DNA from: Eledone cirrhosa
Lineage: Eukaryota
Reading direction: 5' to 3'
Assembly: GCA_964016885.1 (NCBI GenBank)
Contig: OZ024765.1
Location: forward strand, 9,362,001 to 9,426,000
DNA: 64,000 nt
A program made the position numbers and the translations under genes. Of the stretch, positions 3,640 to 58,350 are shown piece after piece. The notes beneath the pieces are model-generated. The model did no database searches. It was not told where the DNA came from and saw nothing but the letters and a program-made list of their open reading frames with translations. How positions within the stretch are numbered: the first letter of the stretch is position 1; every line of letters starts with the position of its first letter.

Positions 3640-4855
3640 TACGGACCTCGAAGCGTAGGAGCCCATTTCTCGAGCAAGTCTATCTGCATGAAACAGATAA
3701 GATCATGAGAGTTGGGAGGGAACTCCTTGAGAGATATTCCCTGTGTGATAATCAAAAACTCACACCCAGGGATGTCGCTCAGCAGTATCGCAGTGAATCC
3801 ATGGATGAAAAACTGCATGCCTATCAGCAAAAAATCATGCATGGATGTGTTGCCAGGAAGCTCCAGAGTGAGAGTAATATAGATAAAGAAAGTAGTCTAT
3901 CTTGGACCAACAACCGCTATATTGGCTCCCACTTTGAAGGATACGCTTTTGCAATCCAGGAACAGGAAATTAGCACGAAATACCTGATTCACAAAATAGA
4001 TAGGGATGCAGGCAAAACACCTAGATGTGATAACAAGTGCAGACTCTGCGGAACTAACATCGAGGATATCACCCATGTCATCAGCAGCTGTCCAAAGATG
4101 TCATCGCGGTACTATCTACCTATGAGGCATGATTTAGTGGCCAAAACACTGGACAATGCAGTTCGTAAAAAAGATAGCCCCGATAATAAACACATTAAAA
4201 GCTACAACAATGTGGAAGACATCCATGTACATAATATGAAAGAGTACTGGTGGAATGTTCCAGTAAAAACCCCAATAAAATGCAAGCATAACAGACCAGA
4301 TATTATGATATGTGACAGGGAGAAGAAAACATGCACAGTAGTGGAAATTAGCTGTCTAACAGATGCCAATATAATATCAAAGATTAGTGAAAAGGAGAAT
4401 ATTTATGCAGAACTGATGAGAATCTGCAGATACTCCACCCTGATTACACCTTCAGATTTATGCCTGTGATTATTGGGGCACTGGGATATGTTAGTAACTG
4501 CCTCAATACAAATCTTGAGAAGCTGGGCTTCACAGGAACAGAAATAACACAACTAGTTAGGAAATTACAAGTACAATCCATTAATGGAACAGTAAAAATA
4601 TGTAAAACATTCCAAAAATTTTGCATCTAATAGCTGCATATACACATGTACAGATACAAAGCATATACACATGCACACATACAACTCAAAACATCCACAT
4701 CCACACATACAATAACATCCATATCTACACATGCATGCATACATATCTACCTAGTTGATGTTGTGTAAATTCCAATTAGAGAGTATTGTGTCTATGTTAG
4801 AAACCGACTCTCTCTCTATTGGTAAAACTTTGTGAAATTATAAAACCAGAAGAAC
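3640..4855 (+). mobile_element. 5'-truncated R4/Dong-like (REL-endonuclease) non-LTR retrotransposon with frameshifted ORF C-terminus
   Basis: ORF 3705-4469 has Zn-knuckle CRLC..EDITHVISSC, RHD, and RPDI..VVEISC..KENIY endonuclease motifs. After a frameshift near 4420 it continues as ...PVIIGALG...KTFQKFCI* (stop 4630). 3' UTR is followed by (TACA)n. Confidence 0.9.
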
Positions 4856-9516: not shown

Positions 9517-9975
9517 GTGGTGTGGTGTGGTGTGGTGTGGTGTGGTGTGGTGTGATGCGGTGGGGTGGGGTGTAGTGCTGGTGTAGTGCTGGTGTAGTGT
9601 GGTGTGGTATGATACGGTGTGCTGTAGTGCAAATCTGGTTGGCTGGTGTGGTGTGGTGGGGCGGGGTGAGGTGGGGATGTGGTGTAGTGCTGGTGTGGTG
9701 TGGTATGATAGGATGTGGGGTAGTGCAAATCTCGCTGGCTAGTTGATATGGTATGGTGTGGTTTGGTGTGGTATGGTGTGGTATGGTGTGGTATGGTGTG
9801 GTGTGGTGTGGTATGGTGTGGTGTGGTATGGTGTGGTGTGGTGTGGTATGGTGTGGTGTGGTGTGCTATGGTGTGCTATGGTGTGGTGTGGTGTGGTATG
9901 GTGTGGTATGGTGTGGTATGGTGTTGTATGGTGTGGTGTGGTGTGCTATGGCGTGGCATGGTGTGGTGTGGTGTG
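9517..9975. repeat. (GTGTG/GTATG)n pentanucleotide satellite
   Basis: Direct. Confidence 0.95.
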
Positions 9976-10710
9976 CTGGTGGCTTGATTCATTACGATGA
10001 CTAAAGTGTTGGTGTGGTGTTGGTGTGGTGTTGGTGTGGTGGTGTGGTGGTATTGTATTAGTATAATGATCAGTGACATTGGTACTGGTATGGTACTGAT
10101 ATAGTCTGGAATGTATATATAGCTGGGTTTAGTATTATTCTTCACTCTAGTTCTGTTTGGTGGTGGGGGTTGGTTGGTGGGAAGGGAATTTCTACTAAAG
10201 GGAGAGAAATACCGTTTTACTTTTAGGTAATTTTAGATACTAATGTCAGGTATTGGTATCTTAGTATGTTTGGTTGGTAAGTCGGTATTGGTATTGGTAT
10301 CTGGACTTTAGTACAGATCTGGTGTCGCTACGGTGGTCAAACAGTAGTGTCCACTCATTGGTCAAACTGACCATTGCATGCCACCATTTTTACAATGTCC
10401 TTAGCATGTGTCTTAGTACTTTGGTGGGCGTGACGATGGCGGAACAACAACAACAACAAAGAAAGAAAGACGGAAAGAACGAACCAATGATAGTCGCAAT
10501 AGTATTTATGTGTGTGAATGTGTGTGTGGAGTGAGATCCCTGAATTAGTGTGTGTGTGGAGTGGGTTCCTTGAATGTGTGTGGGGTGAGGTGGGGGTGGG
10601 GGTCCTTGAATGTGTGTTTGTTTGTGTGTGTAGGAGGGTGTCAGAATGTACGAATGTGTGTGTTTGGGCAATGTCCGTGTGTGAGGAGAGGTAAGAGAGA
10701 GAGAGAGAGG

Positions 10711-10764
<54 letters not shown>

Positions 10765-12236
10765 TTGTGTGTTAGTTTGTTTATCCCCAGAAAGATGAAA
10801 GGCAAAGTTAAACCAGGCTGAGAAAAAATTACCCTGGATAATGGAGTCCTAGATATACTAACGGCACTGAAGGGGTGGCCACGGCTGGAATGAACAGTTA
10901 CTATGGATAATATAGAGCTAAACTAGAGATACCAGCAGTAATGACAGGATGGTCACGGATGGAATATCTTTAATCCCAGGTACGTCATGTTAGAGTTGAC
11001 CTGTCGTTAAACTACAACAACTAAAGAAACTATGCTATTTCCGCCAGGTGGCGTCTGTTGTTTTACTTCAAGGTATCTTTAGATACTGTAATGGTCAGGT
11101 GTAAATATAGCTGGCTGGTCAGCTGGCCTCGATGGTGTGGTGTTGGTGTGGTGGTGGTTTGATTTGTTATGATGTCAGTGGTACTGGTGTGGTGTAGTGT
11201 AGTGTGGTGTGGTGTGGTGTGGTGGTAGTTTGATTTGTTATGGTGTCAGTGGTTCTGGTGTGGTGTGGTGTAGTGTGGTGTAGTGTGTTGTGGTGTGGTG
11301 GTGGTTTGATTTGGTATGATGCCAGTGGTACTGGTGTGGTGGTGGTGTAGTGTGGTGTGGTGTGGTGTGGTTTAGTGAGCTGTGGTGTGCTGACTGACTG
11401 ATTTAGTAAAATGGCAGTGTGGTGTGGGGTGGTTGTAGGAGTTATTGGTGTAGTGTAAATCTAACTAGCTGGTCTGCTGGCTACTATGGTGTGCTGGTGG
11501 CTTGTTTCATTACAATGACTAAAGTGTTGGTGTGGTGTTGGTGTGGTGTTGGTGGTGGTGGTGTGGTGGTATTGTATTAGTATAATGATCAGTGACATTG
11601 GTACTGGTATGGTACTGATATAGTCTGGAATGTATATATAGCTGGGTTTAGTATTATTCTTCACTCTAGTTCTGTTTGGTGGTGGGGGTTGGTTGGTGGG
11701 AAGGGAATTTCTACTAAAGGGAGAGAAATACCGTTTTACTTTTAGGTAATTTTAGATACTAATGCCAGGTATTGGTATCTTAGTATGTTTGGTTGGTAAG
11801 TCAGTATTGGTATTGGTATCTGGACTTTAGTACAGATCTGGTGTCGCTACGGTGATCAAACAGTAGTGTCCACTCATTGGTCAAACTGACCATTGCATGC
11901 CACCATTTTTACAATGTCCTTAGCATGTGTCTTAGTACTTTGGTGGGCGTGACGATGGCGGAACAACAACAACAACAAAGAAAGAAAGACGGAAAGAACG
12001 AACCAATGATAGTCGCAATAGTATTTGTGTGTGTGAATGTGTGTGTGGAGTGAGATCCCTGAATTAGTGTGTGTGGAGTGGGTTCCTTGAATGTGTGTGG
12101 GGTGGGGTGGGGGTGGGGGTCCTTGAATGTGTGTTTGTTTGTGTGTGTAGGAGGGTGTCAGAATGTACGAATGTGTGTGTTTGGGCAATGTCCGTGTGTG
12201 AGGAGAGGTAAGAGAGAGAGAGAGAGGGTGTGTGTG

Positions 12237-12275
<39 letters not shown>

Positions 12276-13778
12276 TTGTGTGTTTGTGTGTTAGTTTGTT
12301 TATCCCCAGAAAGATGAAAGGCAAAGTTAAACCAGGCTGAGAAAAAATTACCCTGGATAATGGAGTCCTAGATATACTAACGGCACTGAAGGGGTGGCCA
12401 CGGCTGGAATGAACAGTTACTATGGATAATATAGAGCTAAACTAGAGATACCAACATTAATGACAGGATGGTCACGGATGGAATATCTTTAATCCCAGGT
12501 ATGTCATGTTAGAGTTGACCTGTCGTTAAACTACAACAACTAAAGAAACTATGCTATTTCCGCCAGGTGGCGTCTGTTGTTTTACTTCAAGGTATCTTTA
12601 GATTCTGTAATGGTCAGGTGTAAATATAGCTGGCTGGTCAGCTGGCCTCGATGGTGTGGTGTTGGTGTGGTGGTGGTTTGATTTGTTATGATGTCAGTGG
12701 TACTGGTGTGGTGTAGTGTAGTGTGGTGTGGTGTGGTGTGGTGGTAGTTTGATTTGTTATGGTGTCAGTGGTTCTGGTGTGGTGTGGTGTAGTGTGGTGT
12801 AGTGTGTTGTGGTGTGGTGGTGGTTTGATTTGGTATGATGCCAGTGGTACTGGTGTGGTGGTGGTGTAGTGTGGTGTGGTGTGGTGTGGTTTAGTGAGCT
12901 GTGGTGTGCTGACTGACTGATTTAGTAAAATGGCAGTGTGGTGTGGGGTGGTTGTAGGAGTTATTGGTGTAGTGTAAATCTAACTAGCTGGTCTGCTGGC
13001 TACTATGGTGTGCTGGTGGCTTGTTTCATTACAATGACTAAAGTGTTGGTGTGGTGTTGGTGTGGTGTTGGTGGTGGTGGTGTGGTGGTATTGTATTAGT
13101 ATAATGATCAGTGACATTGGTACTGGTATGGTACTGATATAGTCTGGAATGTATATATAGCTGGGTTTAGTATTATTCTTCACTCTAGTTCTGTTTGGTG
13201 GTGGGGGTTGGTTGGTGGGAAGGGAATTTCTACTAAAGGGAGAGAAATACCGTTTTACTTTTAGGTAATTTTAGATACTAATGTCAGGTATTGGTATCTT
13301 AGTATGTTTGGTTGGTAAGTCAGTATTGGTATTGGTATCTGGACTTTAGTACAGATCTGGTGTCGCTACGGTGGTCAAACAGTAGTGTCCACTCATTGGT
13401 CAAACTGACCATTGCATGCCACCATTTTTACAATGTCCTTAGCATGTGTCTTAGTACTTTGGTGGGCGTGACGATGGCGGAACAACAACAACAACAAAGA
13501 AAGAAAGACGGAAAGAACGAACCAATGATAGTCGCAATAGTATTTATGTGTGTGAATGTGTGTGTGGAGTGAGATCCCTGAATTAGTGTGTGTGTGGAGT
13601 GGGTTCCTTGAATGTGTGTGGGGTGGGGTGGGGGTCCTTGAATGTGTGTGGGGTGGGGTGGGGGTGGGGGTCCTTGAATGTGTGTTTGTTTGTGTGTGTA
13701 GGAAGGTGTCAGAATGTACGAATGTGTGTGTTTGGGCAATGTCCGTGTGTGAGGAGAGGTAAGAGAGAAAGAGAGAGG

Positions 13779-13834
<56 letters not shown>

Positions 13835-14200
13835 TTGTGTGTTAGTTTGTTTATCCCCAGAAAGATGAAAGGCAAAGTTAAACCAGGCTGAGAAAAAATT
13901 ACCCTGGATAATGGAGTCCTAGATATACTAACGGCACTGAAGGGGTGGCCACGGCTGGAATGAACAGTTACTATGGATAATATAGAGCTAAACTAGAGAT
14001 ACCAACATTAATGACAGGATGGTCACGGATGGAATATCTTTAATCCCAGGTATGTCATGTTAGAGTTGACCTGTCGTTAAACTACAACAACTAAAGAAAC
14101 TATGCTATTTCCGCCAGGTGGCGTCTGTTGTTTTACTTCAAGGTATCTTTAGATTCTGTAATGGTCAGGTGTAAATATAGCTGGCTGGTCAGCTGGCTAC
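9975..14200 (+). repeat. Three tandem copies of a ~1.52-kb unit (450-bp unique core, GT tract, SINE remnant, CCGCCAGGTGGCG site)
   Basis: Identical ORF predictions recur at 11461 and 12980 (period 1519); cores at 10320, 11839 and 13358. Confidence 0.95.
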
Positions 14201-14927
14201 TATAGTGTGGTGTGGTGTGGTATGTTGTCAGTGGTACTAGTGTGGTGTGGTGTAGTGTAGTGTGGTGTGGTCTGGTGGTGGTTTGACTTGGTATGATGTC
14301 AGTGGTGTGGTGTGGTGTGGTGTAGTGTAGTGTGGTGTGGTGTGGTGTAGTGTAGTGTAGTGTGGTGTGGTGGTGGTTTGATTTGGTATGATGTCAGTGG
14401 TGTGGTGTGGTGTGGTGTGGTGTGGTGCAGTGTAGTGGTGGTTTGATTTGTTATGATGTCAGTGGTGTGGTGTGGTGTGGTGTGGTGTGGTATAGTGGTG
14501 GTTTGATTCGGTATGATGTCAGTGGTACTGGTGTGGTGTGGACAGGGTGGTTGTTTGTGGGGTTTGTTGGTATAGTATAGTGTGGTGTGGTGTGGTGTGG
14601 TGTGTTGGTGTGGTGTGGTGTGGTGTGGTATGGTGATGGCTTTATTCATTATGATGGCTATGATGTGCTGGTATTGGTGTGGTGTGGTGATGACTTGATT
14701 TAGTAAAATGGCAGTGTGGTGTGGGGTGGTTGTAGGAGTTATTGGTGTAGTGTAAATCTAACTAGCTGGTCAGCTGGCTACTATGGTGTGCTGGTGGCTT
14801 GATTCATTAGAATGGCTAAAGTGTTGGTGTGGTGGTGGTGTGGTGGTGGTGTTGGTGGTGTGGTGTGGTGGTGTTGTATTAGTATAATGTTCAGTGACAT
14901 TGGTACTGGTATGGTACTGTGTATATA

Positions 14928-16032
14928 CGACTGTTCATTCCAGCCGTGGCCACCCCTTCATTACTGTTAGCATGTCTAGGACTCTATTATCCATGGTAAA
15001 TGTTTCAGGGCGGTGGATGGCCCAAATCGGTAGAGCGTCGGACTGACGCTCAGCAATATGTGTTACGGCCCTTTACGTTCTGAGTTCAGATCCTGCCTCG
15101 TTCAACTTTGCCTTTCATCCTCCTGGGGATACACACACTAACAAACACACACACATACATACACACTCACATACACCCACACACTCTCTCTTACCTCTCC
15201 GTGTCACACGGAGCACAAGACATTGCCCAAACACACATACATTCGTACATTCTGGACCCTCCTATACACACACACACACACTCACTCACTCAAGTACACA
15301 TTCAAGCACCCCACTCCACACACACACGAGACTATCACTACTGCGACTATCATTGTTTCGTCCTTTCCGTCTTTCTTTGTTGTTGTTGTTGTTCCGCCAT
15401 CGTCACGCCCACCAAAGTACTAAGACACATGCTAAGGACATTGTAAAAATGGTGGCATGCAATGGTCAGTTTGACCAATGAGTGGACACTACTGTTTGAC
15501 CACCGTAGCGACACCAGATCTGTACTAAAGTCCAAGATACCAATACCAATACTGACTTACCAACCAAACATACTAAGATACCAATACCTGACATTAGTAT
15601 CTAAAAATTCCTAAAAGTAAAAACGGTATTTCTCTCCCTTTAGTAGAAATTCCCTTCCCACCAACCAACCCCCACCACCAAACAGAACTAGAGTGAAGAA
15701 TAATACTAAACCCAGCTATATATACATTCCAGAGCTATATCAGTTACCATACCAGTACCAATGTCACTGATCATTATACTAATACAATTACCACCACACC
15801 ACCACCACCAACACCACACCAACACTTTAGTCATTGTAATGAAACAAGCCACCAGCACACCATAGTAGCCAGCTGACCAGCTAGTTAGATTTACACTACA
15901 CCAATAACTCCCCACCCACCCCAGACCACACTGCCATTTTACTAAATCAGTCAGCACAGCACACCACACTCCACTACACCACACAACACCATAGCACACC
16001 ATAGCACACCACACCATACTACACCCCCCCCC

Positions 16033-16063
<31 letters not shown>

Positions 16064-16958
16064 CATACCACACCACAGCACACCATACCACAGCACCCCA
16101 CACCATACCACCCCACACCACCCCACCCCACACCACACCAACACAAATACACCATAGTCATCCTAATGAATTAAGCCATAACCATACCACACCACACTAA
16201 CACCACCCCATACCACATCACACCAACACCGCCCCATACCACACCACACCAATACCAACACCAACACCAACACCAACACCAACACCAACACCCCATAGCT
16301 ATCATAATGAAGCCATCACCACGCCACACCACCCTACACTACACCATATTATACCAATAAACCACACTACACTACACCACACCACACCAGAACCACTGAC
16401 ATCATACCAAGTCAAACCACCACCAGACCACACCACACTACACTACACCACACCACACCACACTACACTACACCACACCACACCACACCACTGACATCAT
16501 ACCAAGTCAAACCACCACCAGACCACACCACACTACACTACACCACACCACACTAGTACCACTGACAACATACCACACCACACCACACTATAGTAGCCAG
16601 CTGACCAGCCAGCTATATTTACACCTGACCATTACAGAATCTAAAGATACCTTGAAGTAAAACAACAGACGCCACCTGGCGGAAATAGCATAGTTTCTTT
16701 AGTTGTTGTAGTTTAACGACAGGTCAACTCTAACATGACGTACCTGGGATTAAAGATATTCCATCCGTGACCATCCTGTCATTAATGTTGGTATCTCTAG
16801 TTTAGCTCTATATTATCCATAGTAACTGTTCATTCCAGCCGTGGCCACCCCTTCAGTGCCGTTAGTATATCTAGGACTCCATTATCCAGGGTAATTTTTT
16901 CTCAGCCTGGTTTAACTTTGCCTTTCATCTTTCTGGGGATAAACAAACTAACACACAA

Positions 16959-16997
<39 letters not shown>

Positions 16998-17752
16998 CAC
17001 ACCCTCTCTCTCTCTCTCTTACCTCTCCTCACACACGGACATTGCCCAAACACACACATTCGTACATTCTGACACCTTCCTACACACACAAGCACACATT
17101 CAAGGACCCCCACCCCACCCCACACACATTCAAGGAACCCACTCCACACACACACTAATTCAGGGATCTCACTCCACACACACATTCACACACATAAATA
17201 CTATTGCGACTATCATTGGTTCGTTCTTTCCGTCTTTCTTTCTTTGTTGTTGTTGTTGTTCCGCCATCGTCACGCCCACCAAAGTACTAAGACACATGCT
17301 AAGGACATTGTAAAAATGGTGGCATGCAATGGTCAGTTTGACCAATGAGTGGACACTACTTTTTGACCACCGTAGCGACACCAGATCTGTACTAAAGTCC
17401 AGATACCAATACCGACTTACCAACCAAACATACTAAGATACCAATACCTGACATTAGTATCTAAAATTACCTAAAAGTAAAACGGTATTTCTCTCCCTTT
17501 AGTAGAAATTCCCTTCCCACCAACCAACCCCCACCACCAAACAGAACTAGAGTGAAGAATAATACTAAACCCAGCTATATATACATTCCAGACTATATCA
17601 GTACCATACCAGTACCAATGTCACTGATCATTATACTAATACAATACCACCACACCACCACACCACCACCACACCACCACACCACCACCACACCAACACT
17701 TTAGCCATTGTAATGAAACAAGCCACCAGCACACCATAGTAGCCAGCTGACC
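14928..17752 (-). repeat. Two inverted copies of the same unit (diverged 14928-15960; near-identical 16590-17752)
   Basis: Reverse complement of the unit; cores at 15445-15516 and 17312-17383. Confidence 0.93.
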
Positions 17753-17774
17753 AGGTGTAAATATAGCTGGCTGG

Positions 17775-19855
17775 TTAGTGTGGTGTGGTGTGGTGTGGTG
17801 TGGTGTGGTGTGGTGTGGTGTAGTGTAGTGTAGTGTAGTGTAGTGTAGTGTAGTGTAGTGTAGTGTAGTGTAGTGTAGTGTAGTGTAGTGTAGTGTAGTG
17901 TAGTGTAGTGTAGTGTAGCGTAGCGTAGCGTAGCGTAGCGTAGCGTGGCGTGGTGTGGTGTGGTGTGGTGTGGTGTGGTGTGGTGTGGTGTGGTGTGGTG
18001 TGGTGTGGTGTGGTGTAGTGTAGTGTAGTGTAGTGTAGTGTAGCGTAGCGTAGCGTAGCGTAGCGTAGCGTAGTGTAGTGTAGTGTAGTGTAGTGTGGTG
18101 TGGTGTGGTGTGGTGTGGTGTGGTGTGGTGTAGTGTAGTGTGGTGTAGTGTAGTGTAGTGTAGTGTGGTGTGGTGTGGTGTGGTGTGGTGTAGTGTGGTG
18201 TAGTGTAGTGTAGTGTAGTGTAGTGTAGTGTAGTGTAGTGTAGCGTAGTGTAGTGTAGTGTAGTGTAGTGTAGCGTAGTGTAGTGTAGTGTAGTGTAGCG
18301 TAGTGTAGTGTAGTGTAGTGTAGTGTAGCGTAGTGTAGTGTAGCGTAGTGTAGTGTAGTGTGGTGTGGTGTGGTGTGGTGTGGTGTGGTGTGGTGTGGTG
18401 TGGTGTGGTGTGGTGTAGTGTGGTGTGATGCGATATGGTGTAGTGTGGGCAGGGTGGGTGGCTGGGGGAGTTATTAGTGTAGTATATATAATTCTAGCTA
18501 GCTGGTCAGCGAGCTAGTATGGTGTGGTGTAGTGTAGTGTAGTGCTGGTGTGGTGTAGTGTGGTGTAGTGTAGTGTGGTGTAGTTTAGTGTGGTGTGGTG
18601 TAGTGTAGTGTGGTGTAGTGTGGTGTAGTTTAGTGTGGTGTGGTGTAGTGTAGTGTGGTGTAGTGTGGTGTAGTTTAGTGTGGTGTGGTGTGGTGTAGTG
18701 CTGGTGTAGTGTAGTGTAGTGCTGGTGTGGTGTAGTGTGGTGTAGTGTAGTGTGGTGTAGTTTAGTGTGGTGTAGTTTAGTGTGGTGTGGTGTAGTTTAG
18801 TGTGGTGTGGTGTGGTGTAGTGCTGGTGTGGTGTGGTGTAGTGCTGGTGTGGTGTAGTGTGGTGTAGTGTAGTGTGGTGTAGTGTAGTGTGGTGTAGTTT
18901 AGTGTGGTGTAGTTTAGTGTGGTGTGGTGTAGTTTAGTGTGGTGTGGTGTGGTGTAGTGCTGGTGTGGTGTGGTGTAGTGCTGGTGTGGTGTAGTGTGGT
19001 GTAGTGTAGTGTGGTGTAGTTTAGTGTGGTGTAGTTTAGTGTGGTGTGGTGTAGTTTAGTGTGGTGTGGTGTGGTGTAGTGCTGGTGTAGTGTAGTGTAG
19101 TGCTGGTGTGGTGTAGTGTGGTGTAGTGTAGTGTGGTGTAGTTTAGTGTGGTGTAGTTTAGTGTGGTGTGGTGTAGTTTAGTGTGGTGTGGTGTGGTGTA
19201 GTGCTGGTGTGGTGTGGTGTAGTGCTGGTGTGGTGTAGTGTGGTGTAGTGTAGTGTGGTGTAGTTTAGTGTGGTGTGGTGTAGTGTAGTGTGGTGTAGTT
19301 TAGTGTGGTGTGGTGTAGTGCTGGTGTGGTGTGGTGTAGTGCTGGTTAGGTGTAGTGTGGTGTAGTGTAGTGTGGTGTAGTTTAGTGTGGTGTGGTGTAG
19401 TGTAGTGTGGTGTAGTTTAGTGTGGTGTGGTGTGGTGTAGTGCTGGTGTGGTGTGGTGTAGTGCTGGTGTGGTGTAGTGTGGTGTAGTGTAGTGTGGTGT
19501 AGTTTAGTGTGGTGTGGTGTAGTGTAGTGTGGTGTAGTTTAGTGTGGTGTGGTGTAGTGCTGGTGTGGTGTGGTGTGGTGTAGTGCTGGTGTGGTGTGGT
19601 GTGGTGTAGTGCTGGTGTGGTGTTGTGTAGTGTAGTGTAGTGTAGTGTAGTGTGGTGTGGTGTGGTGTGGTGTAGTGTAGTGTGGTGTGGTGTAGTGTGG
19701 TGTAGTGCTGGTGTGGTGTGGTGTAGTGCTGGTGTGGTGTGGTGTGGTGTAGTGTTGTGTAGTGTGGTGTGGTGTGGTGTGGTGTGGTGTGGTGTGGTGT
19801 GGTGTGGTGTGGTGTGGTGTGGTGTGGTGTGGTGTGGTGTGGTGTGGTGTAGTGT
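17775..19855. repeat. (GTGTG/GTGTA/GCGTA)n pentamer satellite with higher-order repeats
   Basis: Direct. Confidence 0.95.
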
Positions 19856-20082
19856 GGGTGGCTGGGGGAGTTATTAGTGTAGTATATATAATTCTAGCTA
19901 GCTGGTCAGCTGGCTAGTATGGTGTGGTGTGGCGTGATATTGTGTGGTGTTGTATGGTGATGGCTTCATTCATTATGATGGCTATGGTGTGTTGGTGTTA
20001 GTGTGGCGTGGGGTGGTGTGGTGTGGTGTGGTGTGGTGTGGTGTGGTCTGGGGTGGGTGAGGAGTTATTAGTGTAGTGTAAA

Positions 20083-21300
20083 TCTAACTAGCTGGTCAGC
20101 TGGCTACTATGGTGTGCTGGTGGCTTGATTCATTGCAATGGCTAAAGTGTTGATGTGGTGGTGGTGTGGTGGTGTGGTGTGGTGGTGTGGTGTTGGTGTG
20201 GTGGTGTGGTGGTATTGTATTAGTATAATGATCAGTGACATTGGTACTGGTATGGTACTGATATAGTCTGGAATGTATATATATAGCTGGGTTTGGTATT
20301 ATTCTTCACTCTAGTTCTGTTTGGTGGTGGGGGTTGGTTGGTGGGAAGGGAATTGCTACTAAAGGGAGAGAAATACCGTTTTACTTTTAGGTAATTTTAG
20401 ATACTAATGCCAGGTATTGGTATCTTAGTATGTTTGGTTGGTAAGTCAGTATTGGTATTGGTATCTGGACTTTAGTACAGATCTGGTGTCGCTACGGTGG
20501 TCAAACAGTAGTGTCCATTCATTGGTCAAACTGACCATTGCATGCCACTATTTTTACAATGTCCTTAGCATGTGTCTTAGTACTTTGGTGGGCGTGACGA
20601 TGGCGGAACAACAACAACAACAAAGAAAGACGGAAAGGACGAACCAATGATAGTCGCAGTTGTTTTTATGTGTGTGAATGTGTGTGTGGTGTGGAGCCCT
20701 GAATGTGTGTGTGGAGTGGGTTCCTTGAATGTGTGTATGTATGTACGGAGTGCTTACCCTGATTGTGTGCTGGTGTGTGTGTGTTTGTGTGTGTGTAGGA
20801 GGGTCTCAATGTACGAATGTATGTGTGTGTGGGGGGGGCAATGTCTAACGTTCTGTGTGTGTGGAGAGGTAAGAGAGAGAGAAAGAGTGAGAGAGAGAGA
20901 GATAGTGTGTGTATGTGTGTGTGTGTATGTATGTGTATGTATGTGTATGTACGTGTGTGTGTGTGTGTGTATCCCCAGAGGGATGAAAGGCAAAGTGTGT
21001 GGGGGGCGGGGGGGGGCTGATTATTTCGATCCCAGTACTTCACTAGTATTTTAGTTTATCGAACCCTTTGAGGATGACAGGGAAAGTGACCTCAGTGGGA
21101 TTTGAACCTCGGAACGTAACTTAACACCGCTCTAGCGATTCGACCAATCCGTCGCCCTTACCGTCTTAGATTATGACAGGATGGTCACGGCGGGAATCAT
21201 AGGTATGCCATGTTGGGGGAGATCTGTTGTTATACAACAACAACCACATCAACAAGGCAAACAATTTAACAATGTTATTTCCTCCAGGTGGTGCCTGCCG
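20083..21300 (+). repeat. Sixth, flank-diverged copy of the cassette unit
   Basis: Core at 20484-20555 is nearly identical; downstream SINE and CCTCCAGGTGGTG are positionally homologous but diverged. Confidence 0.9.
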
Positions 21301-21378
21301 GAAGGACTAAAGCCGTGTACAAACGGAAAGGATTAAATACCAAACATGATGGCGGTTTACATACGTACGTATACAATG

Positions 21379-21428
<50 letters not shown>

Positions 21429-22139
21429 CATACATACATACATTACACATACATACATGTATACATACATACATATATACATACATACATATTAAAACTT
21501 ACATACATACATTCATACATATATACATACATAGATACATATACATACATACATATACATACATACATACATACACACATACACATACAATACATACAAT
21601 ACATACACACATACATACATACACACATACATATATGTATACATACACACATCCATACACACACACATACATACATACACACACATATATATATATATAT
21701 ACACACACACATAAATATATTTATATATACATACACATATACACATACATACACACATATATATACATACATACAGTGCTTAATAAATACCATCCATCTA
21801 TCTCCCCCACCTTCCCCCTGCTCATCAATTTCTCAAATCATTCCCCCCTCTTCTCTTTCCTCCGCTCTCCCCCCTCTCCCTCAATAACTACGTATTTCTG
21901 TTTCTCCTCCTCATCCTTTCACCTCTGCGTTTCTACTTGCCCACCACTATCTCACTACTAACTGACCAACACCAACAGACACTGACCAACACCAACACCA
22001 AACACACTAATTAGATAAGTCATTTACTCATTCGACCAAGCATTCTTCCTTCCATCTAGCTGGTCAACCAGCCAACCATCTAGACAGCCAGCCAGCCATC
22101 CAACCAGCCATCCAACCATCCAACCAGCCGTCCAACAAA

Positions 22140-23710
22140 CCAACCATCCAACCAGCCAGCCATTAAACCATCTATCCATTAAACCATCCAACCAACCATT
22201 CAACCAACAAACCAACCAACAAACCATTCAACCAACAAACCAACCAACAAACCATCCAACCATTCAACCACCCAACCAACCAACAAACCATCCAACACTC
22301 AACCATCGAACCAACCAACAAACCATCCAACCATCGAACCAACCAACAAACCATCCAACCATTCAACCATCGAACCAACCAACAAACCATCCAACCATTC
22401 AACCATCGAACCAACCAACAAACCATCCAACCATTCAACCATCGAACCAACCAACAAACCATCCAACCATTCAACCATCGAACCAACCAACAAACCATTC
22501 AACCACCCAACCAACCAACAAACCATCCAACCATTCAACCAACAAACCAACCAACAAACCATCCTACCATTCAACCATCGAACACACAAACAAACCATCC
22601 AACGATTCAACCATCGAACCAACCAACAAACCATCCAACCATTCAACCATCGAACCAACCATCCAACCATTCAACCATCGAACCAACCAACAAACCATCC
22701 AACCATCGAACCAACCAACAAACCATCCAACCATTCAACCATCGAACCAACCAACAAACCATCCAACCATCGAACCAACCAACAAACCATCCAACCATTC
22801 AACCATCGAACCAACCAACAAACCATCCAACCATCGAACCAACCAACAAACCATCCAACCATTCAACCATCGAACCAACCAACAAACCATCCAACCATCG
22901 AACCAACCAACAAACCATCCAACCATTCAACCATCGAACCAACCAACAAACCATCCAACCATCGAACCAACCAACAAACCATCCAACCATTCAACCATCG
23001 AACCAACCAACAAACCATCCAACCATCGAACCAGCCAACAAACCATCCAACCATTCAAACATCGAACCAACCATCCAACCATTCAACCATCGAACCAACC
23101 AACAAACCATCCAACCATTCAACCATCGAACCAACCAACAAACCATCCAACCATCGAACCAACCAACAAACCATCCAACCATTCAACCATCGAACCAACC
23201 AACAAACCATCCAACCATCGAACCAACCAACAAACCATCCAACCATTCAACCATCGAACCAACCAACAAACCATCCAACCATCGAACCAACCAACAAACC
23301 ATCCAACCATTTAACCATCGAACCAACCAACAAACCATCCAACCATTCAACCATCGAACCAACCAACAAACCATCCAACCATCGAACACACAAACAAACC
23401 ATCCAACCATTCAACCATCGAACCAACCATTCAACCATCGAACCAACCATCCAACCATTCAACCATCGAACCAACCAACAAACCATCCAACCATTCAACC
23501 ATCGAACCAACCATTCAACCATTCAACCATCGAACCAACCAACAAACCATCCAACCATCGAACCAACCAACAAACCATCCAACCATTCAACCATCGAACC
23601 AACCAACAAACCATCCAACCATTCAACCATCGAACCAACCAACAAACCATCCAACCATCGAACCAACCAACAAACCATCCAACCATTCAACCATCGAACC
23701 AACCATCCAA
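22140..23710. repeat. CCAA-based minisatellite, 28- and 36-bp monomers forming a 64-bp higher-order unit
   Basis: ORF predictions recur every 64 bp (22671, 22735, 22799, 22863). Confidence 0.95.
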
Positions 23711-24007
23711 CTGACCAGCCAACCACACGCCCAACCGTCCAGCCGGCCAGCTGTACTAGACAGACAGAGAGACAGACAGACAGAGGGACAGACAGACAGA
23801 CATGGCAGCCAGCATACCAATAAACTACTAAAGCTACCAACCATTATATATGCCAGAATACATCTGTTACAACCCCCCAACCACCACCACCACTACTAAG
23901 TCCATTACCACCACCACCACCACCACCACCACCACTGACACCATTCTCATCTAATTAGTATTGCAATTATATCCATCACTGGCAGCTATGCTAATACCAC
24001 ATTCACT

Positions 24008-24787
24008 ACCATCAGTACCACCATCACCATCACCATCAGTACCGCCATCACCATCACCATCAGTACCGCCATCACCATCACCATCAGTACCACTATCACC
24101 ATCACCATCAGTACCACCATCACCATCAGTACCAACATCACCATCACCATCAGTACCACCATCACCATCACCATCAGTACCACCATCACCATCACCATCA
24201 GTACCACCATCACCATCAGTACCACCATCACCATCACCATCAGTACCACCATCACCATCACCATCAGTACCACCATCACCATCACCATCAGTACCACCAT
24301 CACCATCAGTACCAACATCACCATCACCATCAGTACCACCATCACCATCACCATCAGTACCACCATCACCATCACCATCAGTACCACCATCACCATCACC
24401 ATCAGTACCACCATCACCATCACCATCACCATCAGTACCACCATCACCATCAGTACCACCATCACCATCAGTACCAACATCACCATCACCATCAGTACCA
24501 CCATCAGTACCACCATCACCATCAGTACCACCATCACCATCACCATCACCATCAGTACCACCATCACCATCAGTACCTCCATCACCATCAGTACCTCCAT
24601 CACCATCACCATCAGTACCTCCATCACCATCAGTACCTCCATCACCATCACCATCAGTACCACCATCACCATCAGTACCACCATCACCATCAGTACCTCC
24701 ATCACCATCACCATCAGTACCACCATCACCATCAGTTCCACCATCACCATCACCATCAGTACCAACATCACCATCACCATCAGTACC
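24008..24787. repeat. (CCATCA)n / CAGTACCA minisatellite
   Basis: Direct; gives the PSPSVP pseudo-ORF. Confidence 0.9.
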
Positions 24788-25449
24788 AAAACACCAACTG
24801 CAAAACCTTCACCAATACCAATACCATCACACCAATATCACTACCAACATCAACACCACGAACACACCACCATTCCGACACCATCAACACCAACACCACC
24901 AACAACAATAACACCAACACCAACAACACCACCAACAACAATAACACCAACACCAACACCAGCAACACCATCACCAACATACTACTCATACAACACCAAC
25001 ACCAACACTACCAATATAACACGACCAACATTAACACCATCACCATACCACCAACACCATCACCAACAACAACACCAACAACATCACCACCAACACCAAT
25101 AACACCACCACCAATAACACCAACACCATCACTAACAACACTACCAATACACCAACACCATTACCACCATCACCAACAACAACACCAACATCACCAACAG
25201 CACTACTAATACAACACCACCAACACCATCAACAACTGTAAGCCCCAACCTACCTCGCAATACTAAAACCAACCAATACCAAACAGTGCCCCCCCCCTCG
25301 CCCTCCTGCCCCAACACCAATAACAAGACCAACACCACCCACCCCAACACCAACCAGCATTGCTTAGTCCTTTTGACAAGAGTGGACAGTAAACCCCTCC
25401 ACATCACCCCACACACGTAAACACACACACTCAATACTCCACACATACA

Positions 25450-26210
25450 CACTAGACATTGCCCGAACACACACATTTGTACATTCTAGGACTACCCCCA
25501 CATTCACACACACACACACAATCAAGGAACCCATTCCACACACACACAAACATACACAATCAAAGAACCCACTCCACACTCACATTCAGGGATCTCAATC
25601 CACACACACACATCCACACACACAAATACTACTGCGACTATCATTGTTTCGTTCTTTCCGTCTTTCTTTCTTTGTTGTTGTTGTTGTTGTTCCGCCATCG
25701 TCACGCCCACCAAAGTACTAAGACACATGCTAAGGACATTGTAAAAATGGTGGCATGCAATGGTCAGTTTGACCAATGAATGGACACTACTGTTTGACCA
25801 CCGTAGCGACACCAGATCTGTACTAAAGTCCAGATACCAATACCAATACTGACTTACCAACCAAACATACTAAGATACCAATACCTGACATTAGTATCTA
25901 AAATTACCTAAAAGTAAAACGGTATTTCTCTCCCTTTAGTAGAAATTCCCTTCCCACCAACCAACCCCCACCACCAAACAGAACTAGAGTGAAGAATGAT
26001 ACCAAACCAGCTATATATACATTCCAGACTATATCAGTACCATACCAGTACCAATGTCACTGATCATTATACTAATACAATACCACCACACCACCACACC
26101 AACAACACCAACACCAACACCAACACTTTAGCCACTGTAATGAAACAAGCCACCAGCACACCATAGTAGCCAGCTGACCAGCTAGTTAGATTTACACTAC
26201 ACCAATAACT
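25450..26210 (-). repeat. Seventh (inverted) copy of the cassette unit
   Basis: Core at 25743-25814; shares the GTCCATTC variant with copy 6. Confidence 0.9.
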
Positions 26211-26939
26211 CCCCACCCACCCACCCAACACGACACCACACCACCACAGCCATCATACCAAATCAAACCACCACCATAGCATACCATACCAGCAAGCCTG
26301 GTTTTATACTACATCGATAACGCCCCCCCCCCCCACACACACACACACACCACGACACCCATCATACCAAGTAAACCATCGCAGCACACCAGCCAGCCAG
26401 GATTGCAGTTCACCAACACACACCCTTATCACATCATAGCACACTACACCACACCACACCACACCACACCACACTACACTACACCACACCACACTACACC
26501 ACACCACACTACACCACACTACACCACACCACACTACACCACACCACACTACACCACACCACACTAGACCACACCACACCACACTACACCACACCACACA
26601 CCAAACCACACACTACACCACACTACACTACACCACACCACACCACACTACACCACACCACACTACACCACACCACACTACACCACACCACACTACACCA
26701 CACTACACCACACCACACCACACTACACCACACTAGACCATACCACACTACACTACACCACACTACACCACACCACACCGACTAAACAACAAACAACACC
26801 AAATCACACTATACCACACCACACCACACCACACTACACCACACCACACTACACCACACTACACCACACCACACTACACCACACTACACCACACCACACT
26901 ACACTATACCAACCAACCAGTATGCCCTATATTATTATT

Positions 26940-29504: not shown

Positions 29505-29942
29505 TTGGCAGTATCGGTAGAGCGTCCGACACCATGCTTTGCAGCATAGAGTTACGGCCCTTTACGATCTGAGTTCAAATCCCGCCGAGGTTAACTTTGC
29601 CTTTCATCCTTACGGAGTCGATAAAATAAAGTACCAGTAATGCACTGGGGTAATCGCTGGCCTTCTGCCAAGAGTAGAAACTCTATTGATGTGCTGAGCG
29701 CGATGGCCGAGTGGTTAAGGCGTTGGATTTAAGTTCCAATGGACATCTGGGGGCGGTGGATTGGCAGGTATCGGTAGAGGGTCGGACGTCATGCTTTGCA
29801 GCAAAGAGTTATGGCCCTTTATGGCCTGAGTTCAAAACCCGCCGAGGTTAACTTTGCCTTTCATCCTTACGGGGTCGATAAAATAAATTACCAGTAATAC
29901 ACTGGTATAATTGCTGGTCTTGTGCCAAAAGTAGAAACAATT
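29505..29942 (+). mobile_element. Two SINE family A copies flanking a tRNA fragment
   Basis: Copies at 29505-29682 and 29749-29942. Confidence 0.85.
29697..29746 (+). pseudogene. Truncated tRNA-Leu(UAA), 5' two-thirds only
   Basis: AGCGCGA TGGCCGAGTGGTTAAGGC G TTGGA-TTTAAGT-TCCAA TGGACAT: Leu-type D arm, anticodon TAA at 29730-32 and start of the variable arm. T-arm and 3' acceptor strand are replaced by a SINE. Confidence 0.85.
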
Positions 29943-30239
29943 ATATATTATTTACAATGTGGGTCTAAGCAGGTTACTCTGGAAATAGGGTTTGGGTGCT
30001 GAGAGTATTATGTAGCCATGGGGGGAGGGGGGGCAAAACGTTTGAGAACCTCTGCCCTACATCAATGTTTTAACTTGTCTTTGTAATGTCCCCTTCATTT
30101 GATGCCCTTGTGGTAAATTTAAGAAATGATTAATACACGAAATAAATATAAAAGAAAACCTTAAACATTTGTTTAGGGTGTGTGACAACAATACCCAGCG
30201 TCTCATTGGATTTATGGCGACGAAAAATATATTATTGCT

Positions 30240-30607
30240 TTACTCACCAACAACAACAACGACACTACTACCTCCAACACCACCACCACCACCATTTTCA
30301 ACAACAACAACAACAACAACAACAACACTACCACCTTCACCACTTCTAACACCACGACCAAAACCACTACTACCACTACCACCACCAACAATATCACCAC
30401 CATCACCACCATGGCCATTAACACCACCGCCACCGCCACTACTACCCCCCACCATCCACATCACCCCACACCCGCCAGAAACAAAACAGCTGTATATTGT
30501 ACCATTCTTTACACCAAACGACACCCTCCCCCTCCACCACCCCTTGACACGTGACACTGACCTCTGTCCACTGTCCTCACTGACACCAATACGGCCATCA
30601 TTCAGTC

Positions 30608-30638
<31 letters not shown>

Positions 30639-33600
30639 TACTACCACCACCAACACTACTAGTACATCCACTAAAACCATTACCACCACCTCTACTACGA
30701 CTACTACTATTATTACTACAACTATCACCACCACTACCACCACCACCACTACTAGTACTTCCACTAAAACCACTACCACCACCAGTACTACTACTATCAC
30801 CACCACCACCACACACTACCACCGCCATCATCATCACCCACTACCACCACCACTACCACCACTACCACACACTACTACCTCTACACACTACCACCACTAC
30901 CCACTACCACCACTACCACGACCACCACACACTACCACCACTACCACGACCACCACACACTACCACCACCACCAGCACGACGACCACCACACACTATCAC
31001 CACCACCACCACTACGACCACCACACACTATCACCACTACCACGACCACCACACACTACCACCACCACCACACACTATCACCACCACCACCACTACGACC
31101 ACCACACACTATCACCACTACCACGACCACCACACACTACCACCACCACCAGCACGACGACCACCACACACTATCACCACTACCACCACCACCACCACCA
31201 CCACACACTACCACCACGACCACGACCACCACTACCCACTACCACCACCACCACCACCATCACCCACTACCAACGTCACCACCACCACACACTACCACCA
31301 CCACCAGCACGACGACCACCACACACTATCACCACCACCACACACTATCACCACTACCACCACCACCACCACCCACTACCAACGTCACCACCACCACACA
31401 CTACCACCACCACCAGCACGACGACCACCACGACCACACACTATCACCACTACCACCACCACCACCACCACACACTACCACCACGACCACAACCACCACT
31501 ACCCACTACCACCACCACTACCACCACCACCATCACCAACGCCACCACCACCACCACTACGACCACCACACACTATCACCACTACCACGACCACCACCAC
31601 CATCACCAACGCCACCACCACACACCACGAGCCCCATCACCTCAAGGTAACAAAAACAGCTGTTTTGTATACCAGTCTTAACTAACGCCCTTCCTCCCCA
31701 CCAAACCAGCCACCCCACCTCTCCCTCACACGTGACACTGACCAGTGTCCACGTTCACACCGCCATTCCGACCATAATTCAAACCAAACTGCTGCTGCTG
31801 CTTTTGTTAACCTTCTGCCACCACCACTACCACCACCATCACCACCACTACCATCATCACCACCACCATCACCAGCACCACTACTACCACCACCATTATC
31901 ATCACCACCACTACCATCACCACTACTGCAATCACCACCACAACCATTACCATCACCACCACTACCACCATCGCCACTACCACCATCACCACCACTACCA
32001 CTATCTATACCACCTTCAGCAATAACTCACCACCACCCCCATCACTACCACACAACCACCAACACTATCATCCCCACCAAAACCACACCCACTAACACAA
32101 CAAACACTAACGTCACCACCACCAGCCCCACCAACAACAACACCAACACCACAAACCCACCACCACCATCACCACCACAACCACCAACACTACCAACACC
32201 AACACCACCAACACCACCACCAACAACACCACCAACACTACCAACACTAACAACACACCAACACTACCAACACCACCACCAACACCACCACCACCAACAC
32301 CACCAACACCAACAACACCACCACCAACACCAACACCACCACCAACACTACCAACACCAACACCAACAACACCACCACCACCACCACCAACAACACCACC
32401 AACACCAACAACACCACCACCAACACCAACACCACCACCAACACTACCAACACCAACACCAACAACACCACCACCAACAACACCACCACCAACACCAACA
32501 CCACCACCAACACTACCAACACCAACACCAACACCACCACCACCACCACCACCAACAACACCAACACCACTAACACCACCACCACTACCACTACCAACAC
32601 CACTAACACCACCAACAACACCACCACCAACACCACCAACACCACCAACACCACCAACACCACCACCACCACCACCACCACCACCACCACCACCACCACC
32701 AACAACACCAACACTACCAACACCACCACCACTACCACTACCAACACCACTAACACCACCAACAACACCACCACCAACACCACCAACACCAACACTACCA
32801 ACACCACCAACACCACCACCACCACCACCACCACCACCACCACCACCACCACCAACAACACCAACACTACCAACACCACCACCACTACCACTACCAACAC
32901 CACTAACACCACCAACAACACCACCACCAACACCACCAACACCAACACTACCAACACCACCAACACCACCACCACCACCACCACCACCACCACCACCACC
33001 ACCACCAACAACACCAACACTACCAACACCACCACCACTACCACTACCAACACCACTAACACCACCAACAACACCACCACCAACACCACCAACACCAACA
33101 CTACCAACACCACCAACACCACCACCACCACCACCACCACCACCACCACCACCAACAACACCAACACTACCAACACCACCACCACTACCACTACCAACAC
33201 CACTAACACCACCAACAACACCACCACCAACACCACCAACACCAACACTACCAACACCACCAACACCACCACCACCACCACCACCACCACCACCACCACC
33301 AACAACACCAACACTACCAACACCACCACCACTACCACTACCAACACCACCACCACCACCACCACCAACACCACCAACACCAACACTACCAACACCACCA
33401 ACACCACCACCACCACCAACACCACCACCACCACCACCACCACCAACAACACCAACACTACCAACACCACCACCACTACCACTACCAACACCACCAACAC
33501 CACCACCACCACCACCACCACCAACAACACCACCACCACCACCAACAACACCAACACTACCAACACCACCAACAACACCACCACCAACACCACCAACAAC

Positions 33601-33922: not shown

Positions 33923-34239
33923 TTTTAGACGTGAGAACTCTTTCTGACAGTACAGTGTGTTTAGCCCCTGGTCATTCCTAATCAAGATGACCTTTGATGA
34001 TCAAAGACATTCCAGCCGTGACCAGCCCAGTCTGGCTGTCGGTCAGCATGAGTATTGGTTAGTTCAGTAATTGGTCACTCAGTCTGTCTGTCTGTGTTGG
34101 TCAGTCAGAGTATCCATCAGTCTTGGTCAGTTTAGTAAGATGTTCGGTCGGTTTGCCTGACTGTCAATATATTATTGGTCAGTTTGTCTGTCTGTCTGTC
34201 TGTCTGTGAATTAGTCTGTCTGTCTGTCTATTGGTCAGT

Positions 34240-34930
34240 CTGTGTATTGGTCAATCTGTGTCTCCGTTAGTCTTTTGGCCAGTTTAGTATGTTGGTCAAT
34301 CTGTCCGTCTGTCTGTCAGTCCGTATATTGGTCAGTCTGTGCATCCATTAGTCTTTTGGCCAGTTTAGTATGTTGGTCAATCTGTCCGTCTGTCTGTCAG
34401 TCCGTATATTGGTCAGTCTGTGCATCCATTGGTCTTTTGGCCAGTTTAGTATGTTGGTCAATCTGTCCGTCTGTCTGTCAGTCCGTATATTGGTCAGTCT
34501 GTGCATCCATTAGTCTTTTGGCCAGTTTAGTATGTTGGTCAATCTGTCCGTCTGTCTGTCAGTCCGTATATTGGTCAGTCTGTGCATCCATTAGTCTTTT
34601 GGCCAGTTTAGTATGTTGGTCAATCTGTCCGTCTGTCTGTCAGTCCGTATATTGGTCAGTCTGTGCATCCATTAGTCTTTTGGCCAGTTTAGTATGTTGG
34701 TCAATCTGTCCGTCTGTCTGTCAGTCCGTATATTGGTCAGTCTGTGCATCCATTAGTCTTTTGGCCAGTTTAGTATGTTGGTCAATCTGTCAGTCCATCT
34801 GTCAGTCTAAGTAATGGTCAGTCTGTGCATCCATTAGTCTTTTGGCCAGTTTAGTATGTTGGTCAATCTGTCAGTCCATCTGTCAGTCTAAGTAATGGTC
34901 AGTTTGTGTATCCATTAGTCTTTTGGCCAG
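34240..34930. repeat. 81-bp minisatellite, about 8 copies
   Basis: 27-aa periodicity of the pseudo-ORF; GGTCAGTCTGTGCATCC at 34331 and 34412. Confidence 0.95.
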
Positions 34931-36980: not shown

Positions 36981-37073
36981 TATAGATAGATAGATAGAGA
37001 GGTAGATAGATAGATATATGGAGAGAGTGGTAGATACATAGATAGATATATAGATGGATAGATAGATAGATAC

Positions 37074-37138
<65 letters not shown>

Positions 37139-38376: not shown

Positions 38377-38958
<582 letters not shown>

Positions 38959-58109: not shown

Positions 58110-58350
58110 AAAAATCTCGTATCGTGAGGGCGCGAAAAAAGCAAAAAGCAAAAAAATAAAAATAAAATGAACAAAATAAAACTATATAAAAAAAAATATA
58201 TAATGTTATTCCGGCCAGAGTGACCAATGACCAGTGCCCAGTGTGTACTATATAGCTTGACCGTGTCATCGCAGATCGATTGGTGGTAGTAGTGGTTTGA
58301 CCTGTTAGCGACAACAGTTCCAAAAGCGACACTAGTGACCACTTACTAAT
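58110..58350 (-). promoter_or_regulatory. Probable promoter region (two CCAAT boxes, CpG-richer unique DNA)
   Basis: TGACCAATGA at 58221, CGATTGG at 58277, GTTTGACC..TAGCGAC at 58295; YY1-like ATGGC motifs at ~57495 and ~57712. Direction is inferred. Confidence 0.4.

What the first reader, a model, noticed from the sequence alone, without database searches (positions are those of the whole stretch)
9975..26210. Seven-copy, bidirectional array of a ~450-bp promoter-like cassette whose core is more conserved than its flanks
Seen: a unique cassette occurs at core positions 10320(+), 11839(+), 13358(+), 15445(-), 17312(-), 20484(+) and 25743(-), embedded in pentamer satellites. In order it carries GTCGCTA, GGTCAAAC, CTCATTGGTCA (reverse CCAAT, NF-Y consensus), TTAGTACTTTGGT (Inr-like TTAGT), GGGCGTGAC and GATGGCGG (YY1-like). 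Copies 4, 6 and 7 have clearly diverged downstream flanks (compare 21175-21295 with 10940-11055) yet differ by only a few bases in the core. Inference: a cluster of duplicated core promoters or small-RNA genes kept uniform by selection or gene conversion. No shared ORF follows: MAEQQQQ.. is frameshifted between copies.
Basis: partly seen in the sequence, partly recalled or inferred. Interest (0 to 1): 0.75.

Follow-up and report, generated by a model that had tools for sequence, protein, structure and literature searches.

The report
Gene-converted promoter copies lacking a gene
Seven near-identical copies of a roughly 600-base stretch that is likely a gene's start switch (promoter) sit together in an octopus-type genome with no protein-coding gene found attached, and they are likely kept alike by neighbouring copies overwriting each other rather than by selection; whether they make any RNA is untested.

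Summary
Observation confirmed and extended. Seven copies (plus a truncated eighth) of a ~600-bp block lie in the order + + + - - + -; genome searches find them only here. Four old lineages differ by 0.8-2.0% in the block but by 10-19% in homologous non-microsatellite flank islands. The motif-bearing part is no better conserved than the motif-free upstream part (4/125 vs 6/233 variable columns, p=0.74), three of its four changes hit named or candidate motifs, and 25 of 36 informative site pairs fail the four-gamete test: this favours gene conversion, not selection. Promoter identity is plausible, not shown: a second local family (4 copies) shares 21/25 nt of the initiator region and has a canonical TATA box; the cassette itself has none. 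No Rfam hit, no stable fold, no shared ORF, no coding exon found nearby, no RNA data. Best reading: an orphan or lncRNA promoter multiplied by tandem and fold-back duplication and homogenised by conversion. The scan noted the same pattern before on other DNA (promoter cassettes of protocadherin arrays in this genome). A perfect estrogen-response-type palindrome and convergent copies (possible dsRNA) are untested leads.

The parts
9975..10500 (+). copy c1 of the conserved block (upstream end replaced by GTGGT satellite); initiator-like TTAGTACTTTGGT at 10413-10425
10324..10444 (+). motif core in c1: GTCGCTA 10324-10330, GGTCAAAC 10335-10342, reverse CCAAT 10357-10361, perfect GGTCAnnnTGACC palindrome 10360-10372, YY1-like GCCACCATTTT 10380-10390, T-rich tract in TATA register 10387-10391, initiator-like 10413-10425, ATGGCGG 10436
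   Evidence: YY1 and NF-Y consensus recalled, ERE consensus from PMC3778743
10689..10696 (+). 5' splice-donor-like AG|GTAAG, present downstream of 6 of 7 copies (absent in c7)
10500..11130 (+). downstream flank type D1 (microsatellites, deleted SINE remnant, decayed repeat pieces); 98-100% identical in c1, c2, c3, c5 (recent duplication)
11434..12019 (+). copy c2 (tandem period 1519 bp); GGTCAAAC mutated
12953..13538 (+). copy c3
14700..14919 (+). truncated eighth copy (upstream part only)
14919..14930 (.). fold-back junction 1 (truncated copy joined to inverted c4 flank through about 10 inserted bases); bridged by a short-read contig of run X1
14930..15335 (-). old downstream flank of c4 with a SINE remnant 75-83% identical to young SINE copies in the window
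15336..15921 (-). copy c4 (five 1-bp insertions that may be assembly errors; frameshifted ORF)
17203..17754 (-). copy c5 with D1 flank 16600-17200; GGTCAAAC mutated
17750..17775 (.). fold-back junction 2 (inverted c5 upstream end joined to a direct D1 end fragment at the AGCTG/CAGCT word)
17778..19861 (+). GTGGT/GTAGT pentamer satellite between the divergent copies c5 and c6
20041..20664 (+). copy c6 (shares alleles with five other copies; frameshifted ORF); old flank 20665-21300
25634..26231 (-). copy c7 with its own old downstream flank 25250-25630
58210..58313 (-). possible older relative: GTCGCTA-ACA-GGTCAAAC, CCAAT, CTATATAG, TCATT; homology not statistically significant

Best explanation
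A roughly 600-bp block that is likely an RNA polymerase II promoter with a short non-coding first exon was multiplied in place by old duplications plus recent tandem and fold-back duplications, and the copies are likely kept 98-99% alike by gene conversion between neighbours rather than by selection. Shown: seven copies in one place, old diverged flanks on both sides, flat conservation across the block, mosaic sharing of variants, two inversion junctions. Inferred: conversion works on the block because it is the one long stretch not broken by unstable microsatellites, while the 60-110 bp flank islands have dropped below the identity needed; the promoter would fire at the TAGTAC initiator and make a non-coding, probably spliced RNA (donor at about +275), with seven copies giving extra dosage or nothing at all.
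For: Copy number and locality. Block 96-100% in most bins from -430 to +85 versus 67-83% from +85 to +300 among c2, c4, c6, c7. Non-microsatellite flanks 6/61 and 21/108 substitutions downstream, 6/66 to 15/86 far upstream, against 3-8 in about 390 in the block. 25 of 36 pairs of 9 informative sites show all four gametes; c6 shares alleles with c1, c2, c4, c5 and c7 at different sites. Motif part 4/125 versus upstream part 6/233 variable columns, p=0.74. Conversion between paralogues generally needs >92% identity and has been documented in the GH1 promoter (PMC3966225, passages read). Promoter anatomy: 21/25 nt match to family B, reached by 0 of 100 shuffles; B1 and B4 carry TATATAAG, which fits TATAWAAR, 30 nt before the A of GTACTTT, which fits YYANWYY at 6 of 7 positions (consensus table in PMC4581360); family A has a T/A tract in the same register; a YY1-type AAATGGCGG also precedes the nearby ATR gene (one case).
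Against: Family A has no consensus TATA box and TTAGTA matches TCAKTY at only 4 of 6 positions. CpG enrichment is modest: 8 CpG in 190 bp, reached by 9% of local windows. The apparent third relative at 58.3 kb is not significant (53 of 60 shuffles score as high). TTGGTCA and TAGT words are common in local satellites, so some motifs may be local vocabulary. Longest uninterrupted identity between old lineages is 81-165 bp, below the >200 bp quoted for mouse cells. Four-gamete conflicts could partly come from recurrent mutation or haplotype mixing in the assembly. No downstream exon or product was identified.
Confidence: 0.55

Rival explanations
1. The block is inert: ordinary or long-dead sequence amplified by tandem and inverted duplication and homogenised by conversion; the motifs are local low-complexity vocabulary or relics.
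For: No excess conservation at motifs and mutations inside them; no product, ORF or coding exon found; GGTCA and GTGGT words are abundant locally; homogenisation needs no function.
Against: The 12-mer TAGTACTTTGGT is invariant across family A and the four B units while neighbouring bases differ; B has a canonical TATA at canonical distance; 0 of 100 shuffles reach the A-B match.
Confidence: 0.25
2. The convergent and fold-back copies act as a source of long double-stranded or hairpin RNA (endo-siRNA or ADAR substrate).
For: c3 (+) and c4/c5 (-) face each other within 2-4 kb; 13453-14687 matches the reverse complement of 16128-17288 at 88.6% over 1242 columns; no AATAAA/ATTAAA on the + strand between 10415 and 16356.
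Against: A donor site at about +275 in six copies could splice the RNA away from the inverted arms; no target gene shares this sequence; inversions are explained by replication errors alone.
Confidence: 0.08
3. The copies are a multicopy small-RNA gene family (snRNA-, Y-, vault- or piRNA-gene-like) held uniform by purifying selection.
For: Conserved upstream region with a sharp fall-off downstream resembles snRNA gene arrays (recalled); a T5 tract could be a Pol III terminator.
Against: No Rfam match at gathering score in the window and only three chance-level matches near c1; folding no better than shuffles; no excess conservation in any sub-region.
Confidence: 0.07
4. The array is partly an assembly artefact (palindromic chimeras or over-expanded copies).
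For: c4 carries five 1-bp insertions not seen in the collapsed short-read contig; fold-back structures are error-prone; the runs may come from the assembled sample.
Against: The collapsed core contig is 1.6-2.0 times as deep as the four-copy flank contig in 3 of 3 runs (11.9/6.15, 23.9/12.2, 17.8/11.1; 7:4 predicts 1.75; the tool warns depth is no copy number); junction 1 is bridged by a contig; the unique c6 flank exists as its own contig in 2 of 3 runs.
Confidence: 0.05

Closest known systems
Interlocus gene conversion of paralogous promoters (human GH1 cluster; PMC3966225, passages read; PMC3924818, passages read)
   Same: Neighbouring paralogous promoter-type blocks above 92% identity with mosaic sharing of variants and tracts of a few hundred bases.
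   Different: No coding gene is attached here; copies lie in both orientations; uninterrupted identity is only 81-165 bp.
Promoter/first-exon cassettes of octopod protocadherin arrays
   Same: Same genome; 440-550 bp near-identical non-coding block with CCAAT and YY1-like sites, read as promoter plus non-coding first exon homogenised by conversion.
   Different: No sequence match to those cassettes in the genome search; no gene follows the copies here; mixed orientation.
Inverted triplication (DUP-TRP/INV-DUP; PMC11293582, abstract and outline read; PMC10766183, search listing only)
   Same: Direct-inverted-direct order with two inversion junctions.
   Different: Kilobase scale, fixed in an animal genome rather than a patient variant; no long 100%-identical inverted repeat at the junctions was shown.
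Drosophila hairpin-RNA loci (PMC10292708, PMC10317233; search listings and abstract starts only)
   Same: Recent inverted duplication that could give long fold-back RNA.
   Different: No transcript shown and no target gene with matching sequence.

Membership tests
Focused Pol II core promoter (TATA/Inr) | TATAWAAR at -30/-31 | tested here: not met
   Family A has TTTTTACA in that register; met only by B1 and B4 (consensus)
Focused Pol II core promoter (TATA/Inr) | Initiator consensus (TCAKTY or YYANWYY) | tested here: inconclusive
   TTAGTA 4 of 6; GTACTTT 6 of 7
Focused Pol II core promoter (TATA/Inr) | Capped 5' ends and open chromatin | not testable with these tools
   No CAGE, ATAC or raw RNA reads were available
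Interlocus gene conversion (concerted evolution) | Mosaic sharing of variants incompatible with one tree | tested here: met
   25 of 36 site pairs four-gamete incompatible
Interlocus gene conversion (concerted evolution) | High identity island between older diverged homologous flanks, independent of motif content | tested here: met
Interlocus gene conversion (concerted evolution) | More than 200 bp of uninterrupted identity (mouse MEPS) | tested here: not met
   81-165 bp between old lineages; value from PMC3966225, not measured in molluscs
Interlocus gene conversion (concerted evolution) | Paralogues more alike within than between species | not testable with these tools
   No related cephalopod genome can be searched here
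Structured small-RNA gene families (Rfam) | Match to a covariance model at gathering score | tested here: not met
Structured small-RNA gene families (Rfam) | Fold more stable than shuffles | tested here: not met
   z -0.22 (+) and +0.35 (-) for 10300-10460
Dispersed transposable element or solo LTR | Copies scattered over the genome | tested here: not met
   7 of 7 hits within 16 kb
Dispersed transposable element or solo LTR | Sharp termini with terminal repeats or target-site duplications | tested here: not met
   Identity fades into microsatellites and homologous older flanks; read from alignments
Inverted triplication | Direct-inverted-direct order with two junctions | tested here: met
Inverted triplication | Junctions inside inverted repeats | tested here: inconclusive
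   Junction 2 at a short palindromic word, junction 1 has about 10 inserted bases
Hairpin-RNA (endo-siRNA) locus | Transcribed inverted repeat yielding phased siRNAs against a homologous target | not testable with these tools
   Inverted arms present; no small-RNA data; no target found
Protein-coding first exon | Frame shared by all copies and homologues elsewhere | tested here: not met
   Frameshift in c4 and c6; no homologue for the 58-aa c7 ORF at near or longer lengths; no Pfam hit

The most novel reading that the evidence does not exclude
The region is a promoter-only gene cluster: at least eleven related Pol II promoters (families A and B), the A copies each carrying a perfect estrogen-response-type palindrome that the ligand-independent molluscan estrogen receptor could bind, drive repeat-rich non-coding RNAs from both strands, and the fold-back copies make double-stranded RNA for ADAR or Dicer.
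Probability: 0.08. Interest if true: 0.7.

Novelty: new member of a known kind. Interest (0 to 1): 0.3.

Why it matters
As it stands it is a clean example that a core more conserved than its flanks can arise from conversion alone, a caution for reading such cassettes in microsatellite-rich cephalopod genomes. If transcription is shown, it gives an allelic series of natural promoter variants (TATA-bearing and TATA-less, motif-mutated copies) for a group whose core promoters were not found described in the searches made here, and a candidate native target for the molluscan estrogen receptor.

Tried and rejected
RNA evidence: no RNA holder listed; the three runs laid were contigs of one sample and show presence only. 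Rfam on the window, near c1 and on 100 kb of neighbours: nothing relevant. ARAGORN: 0 genes. Pre-miRNA-like hairpin scan of the window: the core gave only an irregular -26 kcal stem. Coding exons: Pfam on 150 of 1096 ORF segments within 100 kb either side and on 150 of 511 filtered segments between the NDK and PreP-like genes gave no convincing host-gene family inside the window (one sub-threshold TMEM164 hit in a retrotransposon-like stretch at 3900-4100); the search is not exhaustive for short exons. Cassette as first exon of the trypsin gene to the right: rejected, as its ORFs stop before the donor and the phase does not fit. A C/A-rich open frame on the antisense strand after a strong acceptor: rejected, broken by 1-2 bp indels in c4, c6, c7. 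Homology of the 58.3-kb element: significant against that element alone (5 of 2000 shuffles) but not against the window (53 of 60); the exact motif pair has 8 genome hits against 2 for the control but was chosen after seeing the data; the two hits on C28 look by eye like retrotransposon coding DNA (one of two viewed, not tested). The B-family 17-mer has 5 genome hits against 4 for the control and the 15-mer palindrome 16 against 1; neither says much. Resemblance of TGGTCAAACTG to Drosophila motif 1 and of CTGTTTGA to the nematode piRNA motif: recalled consensus, not tested, not used. Literature searches for octopus core promoters, cephalopod promoter conversion, octopus lncRNA duplicates and cephalopod hairpin RNA returned nothing on this locus; subscription papers and bioRxiv supplements were not visible and could bear on that. 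Look-alikes in other genomes of the scan: none.
Full report
Setting. The window is G000:C26:9362001-9426000 of a 3.0-Gb animal assembly. Earlier notes of the scan call this genome octopod, and the SINE seen in the window fits that from recall; the species was not determined. The window is dominated by microsatellites and satellites. Nearest recognised coding exons are an NDK exon about 218 kb to the left and, to the right, a trypsin exon 13 kb beyond the window end across a 200-N scaffold gap, a rhodopsin-family GPCR, a PreP-like peptidase and ATR. Pfam scans of 150 of 1096 and 150 of 511 ORF segments found no convincing host-gene family inside the window; short exons could have been missed.

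Observation. Seven copies are present in the order + + + - - + -, and two separate genome searches return exactly these seven. With the first A of TTAGT as zero, identity among the old lineages c2, c4, c6 and c7 is 94% at -520..-430, 96-100% from -430 to +85, then 83%, 67% and 76% in the next three bins. The conserved unit is therefore about 600 bp and includes some 250 bp of motif-free, partly low-complexity upstream DNA. A truncated eighth piece ends at 14919.

Age of the copies. c1, c2, c3 and c5 share a 98-100% identical downstream flank and are recent. c4, c6 and c7 have older flanks that remain homologous: c1, c4 and c6 share the same SINE junction, and non-microsatellite islands differ by 6 of 61 (c1-c4) and 21 of 108 bases (c1-c6), against 3 of 388 and 6 of 390 in the block (Fisher p 3e-4 and 2e-10). 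Far-upstream islands of c4, c6 and the truncated copy differ by 6/66 to 15/86. The SINE remnant behind c4 is 75-83% identical to four young SINE copies that are 89-94% identical to each other (all).

Selection or conversion. If selection on motifs held the copies together, the motif part should vary less than the rest. It does not: 4 of 125 columns vary at -95..+30 and 6 of 233 at -335..-95, gap columns excluded (p=0.74); two of the four changes break GGTCAAAC (c2, c5) and one alters the YY1-like GCCACCATTTT (c6). Of 36 pairs among 9 informative sites, 25 show all four gametes; c6 shares alleles with c1, c2, c4, c5 and c7 at different positions. That is the mosaic expected from interlocus conversion. 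A review states that conversion almost always involves sequences over 92% alike and cites the GH1 promoter (PMC3966225, passages); tracts are typically 50 to several hundred bp (PMC3924818, passages). My inference is that the block is the only long stretch unbroken by unstable microsatellites and so stays convertible while flank islands drift. Against this, uninterrupted identity is 81-165 bp, short of the >200 bp quoted for mouse, and some conflicts could be assembly haplotype mixing.

Structure. c1-c3 are tandem with a 1519-bp period; c3 plus spacer and c5 plus spacer form inverted arms. Junction 1 at 14919-14930 has about ten inserted bases and is bridged by a short-read contig; junction 2 at about 17752 lies at a short palindromic word. 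The direct-inverted-direct order resembles inverted triplications made by template switching (PMC11293582, abstract and outline). Short-read contigs collapse the core into one 435-462 nt contig 1.6-2.0 times as deep as the four-copy flank in 3 of 3 runs, in line with 7:4, with the tool's warning that depth is not copy number and that the runs are one sample. They cannot confirm copy-specific variants; the five 1-bp insertions of c4 may be errors.

Is it a promoter? Two of them have TATATAAG 30 nt before the A of GTACTTT, matching the TATA and initiator table of PMC4581360 (passages), and family A has a T/A tract in the same register. Family A adds a reverse CCAAT near -57, two YY1-like sites (consensus recalled) and a donor AG|GTAAG at about +275 in 6 of 7 copies. 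A YY1-type word also lies upstream of the neighbouring ATR gene (one case). Weak points: no consensus TATA in family A, modest CpG enrichment (8 in 190 bp, reached by 9% of local windows), locally abundant GGTCA words, and a third candidate relative at 58.3 kb that is not significant against the window. I put the promoter reading at about 0.65 and conversion at about 0.8.

What could it make? No Rfam family, no stable fold. The ATG at +21 opens 32 aa in four copies, 16 aa in two and 58 aa in one, with no homologue or Pfam match; its hydrophobic tail comes from a GT microsatellite. A non-coding RNA, or none, is the remaining option.

Every copy holds a perfect GGTCAnnnTGACC palindrome; a second independent one lies at 37863, against 0.16 expected per window and none in the 600 kb of flanks, although local GGTCA enrichment weakens this. 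A snail estrogen-receptor orthologue binds that element without ligand (PMC3778743, passages). Second, convergent copies could form double-stranded RNA: 88.6% complementarity over 1242 columns and no + strand polyadenylation hexamer between 10415 and 16356. Both are untested.

Verdict. Real feature, known process: local duplication plus concerted evolution of a likely promoter, similar to what unchecked notes of this scan describe for protocadherin promoter cassettes in the same genome, but without a gene. Interest 0.3.

Noticed in passing
window 33950-52050: About 18 kb of satellites built from ATTGGTCAGTC-like words (CCAAT and nuclear-receptor half-site look-alikes), all on one strand, directly downstream of the four family-B promoter-like units.
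   Followed up: partly
window 57490-58320: CpG-richer unique region with YY1-type words on + (57496, about 57712), a donor-like AG|GTGAGT near 57916 and a TATA-like element on -; single copy in the genome; may be the real promoter of an unidentified gene.
   Followed up: partly
window 30480-30600 and 31650-31790 (-): Two diverged copies of a short unique element containing GTCAGTGTCACGTG (E-box-like) inside a long ACC/GGT satellite; a CCAAT plus ATGGCG element and a donor-like site at 30200-30250.
   Followed up: no
window 29697-29796: tRNA-like fragment (Rfam tRNA 29.4 bits) that runs into a SINE head; not called by ARAGORN.
   Followed up: no
window 38400-38730 and 53990-54310: Long near-perfect inverted repeats with CTGATGA words; hammerhead-like cores also near 39050 (-) and 54926-54951 (+), probably Penelope-related (recalled, no Rfam hit at gathering score).
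   Followed up: no
copies c1-c7, offset about -220, antisense strand (e.g. 15643, 17502, 25939 on +): A strong 3' splice-acceptor-like tract TTTCTCTCCCTTTAG in all seven copies; a c3 transcript could splice from its donor to the one inside inverted c4.
   Followed up: partly
L028:9649-9801, L029:557-859 (-), and genome 9452000-9467400: Exons of a rhodopsin-family GPCR resembling CCAP/neuropeptide-S receptors (family label recalled; Pfam 7tm_1).
   Followed up: partly
L049:5397 to L050:3481 (-): ATR-like kinase encoded in one long uninterrupted reading frame of about 2700 codons, i.e. apparently intronless.
   Followed up: no
L027:2844-8910 (+): Trypsin-like serine protease gene whose first exon was not located; a 200-N scaffold gap at L026:5000-5199 separates it from the window.
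   Followed up: partly
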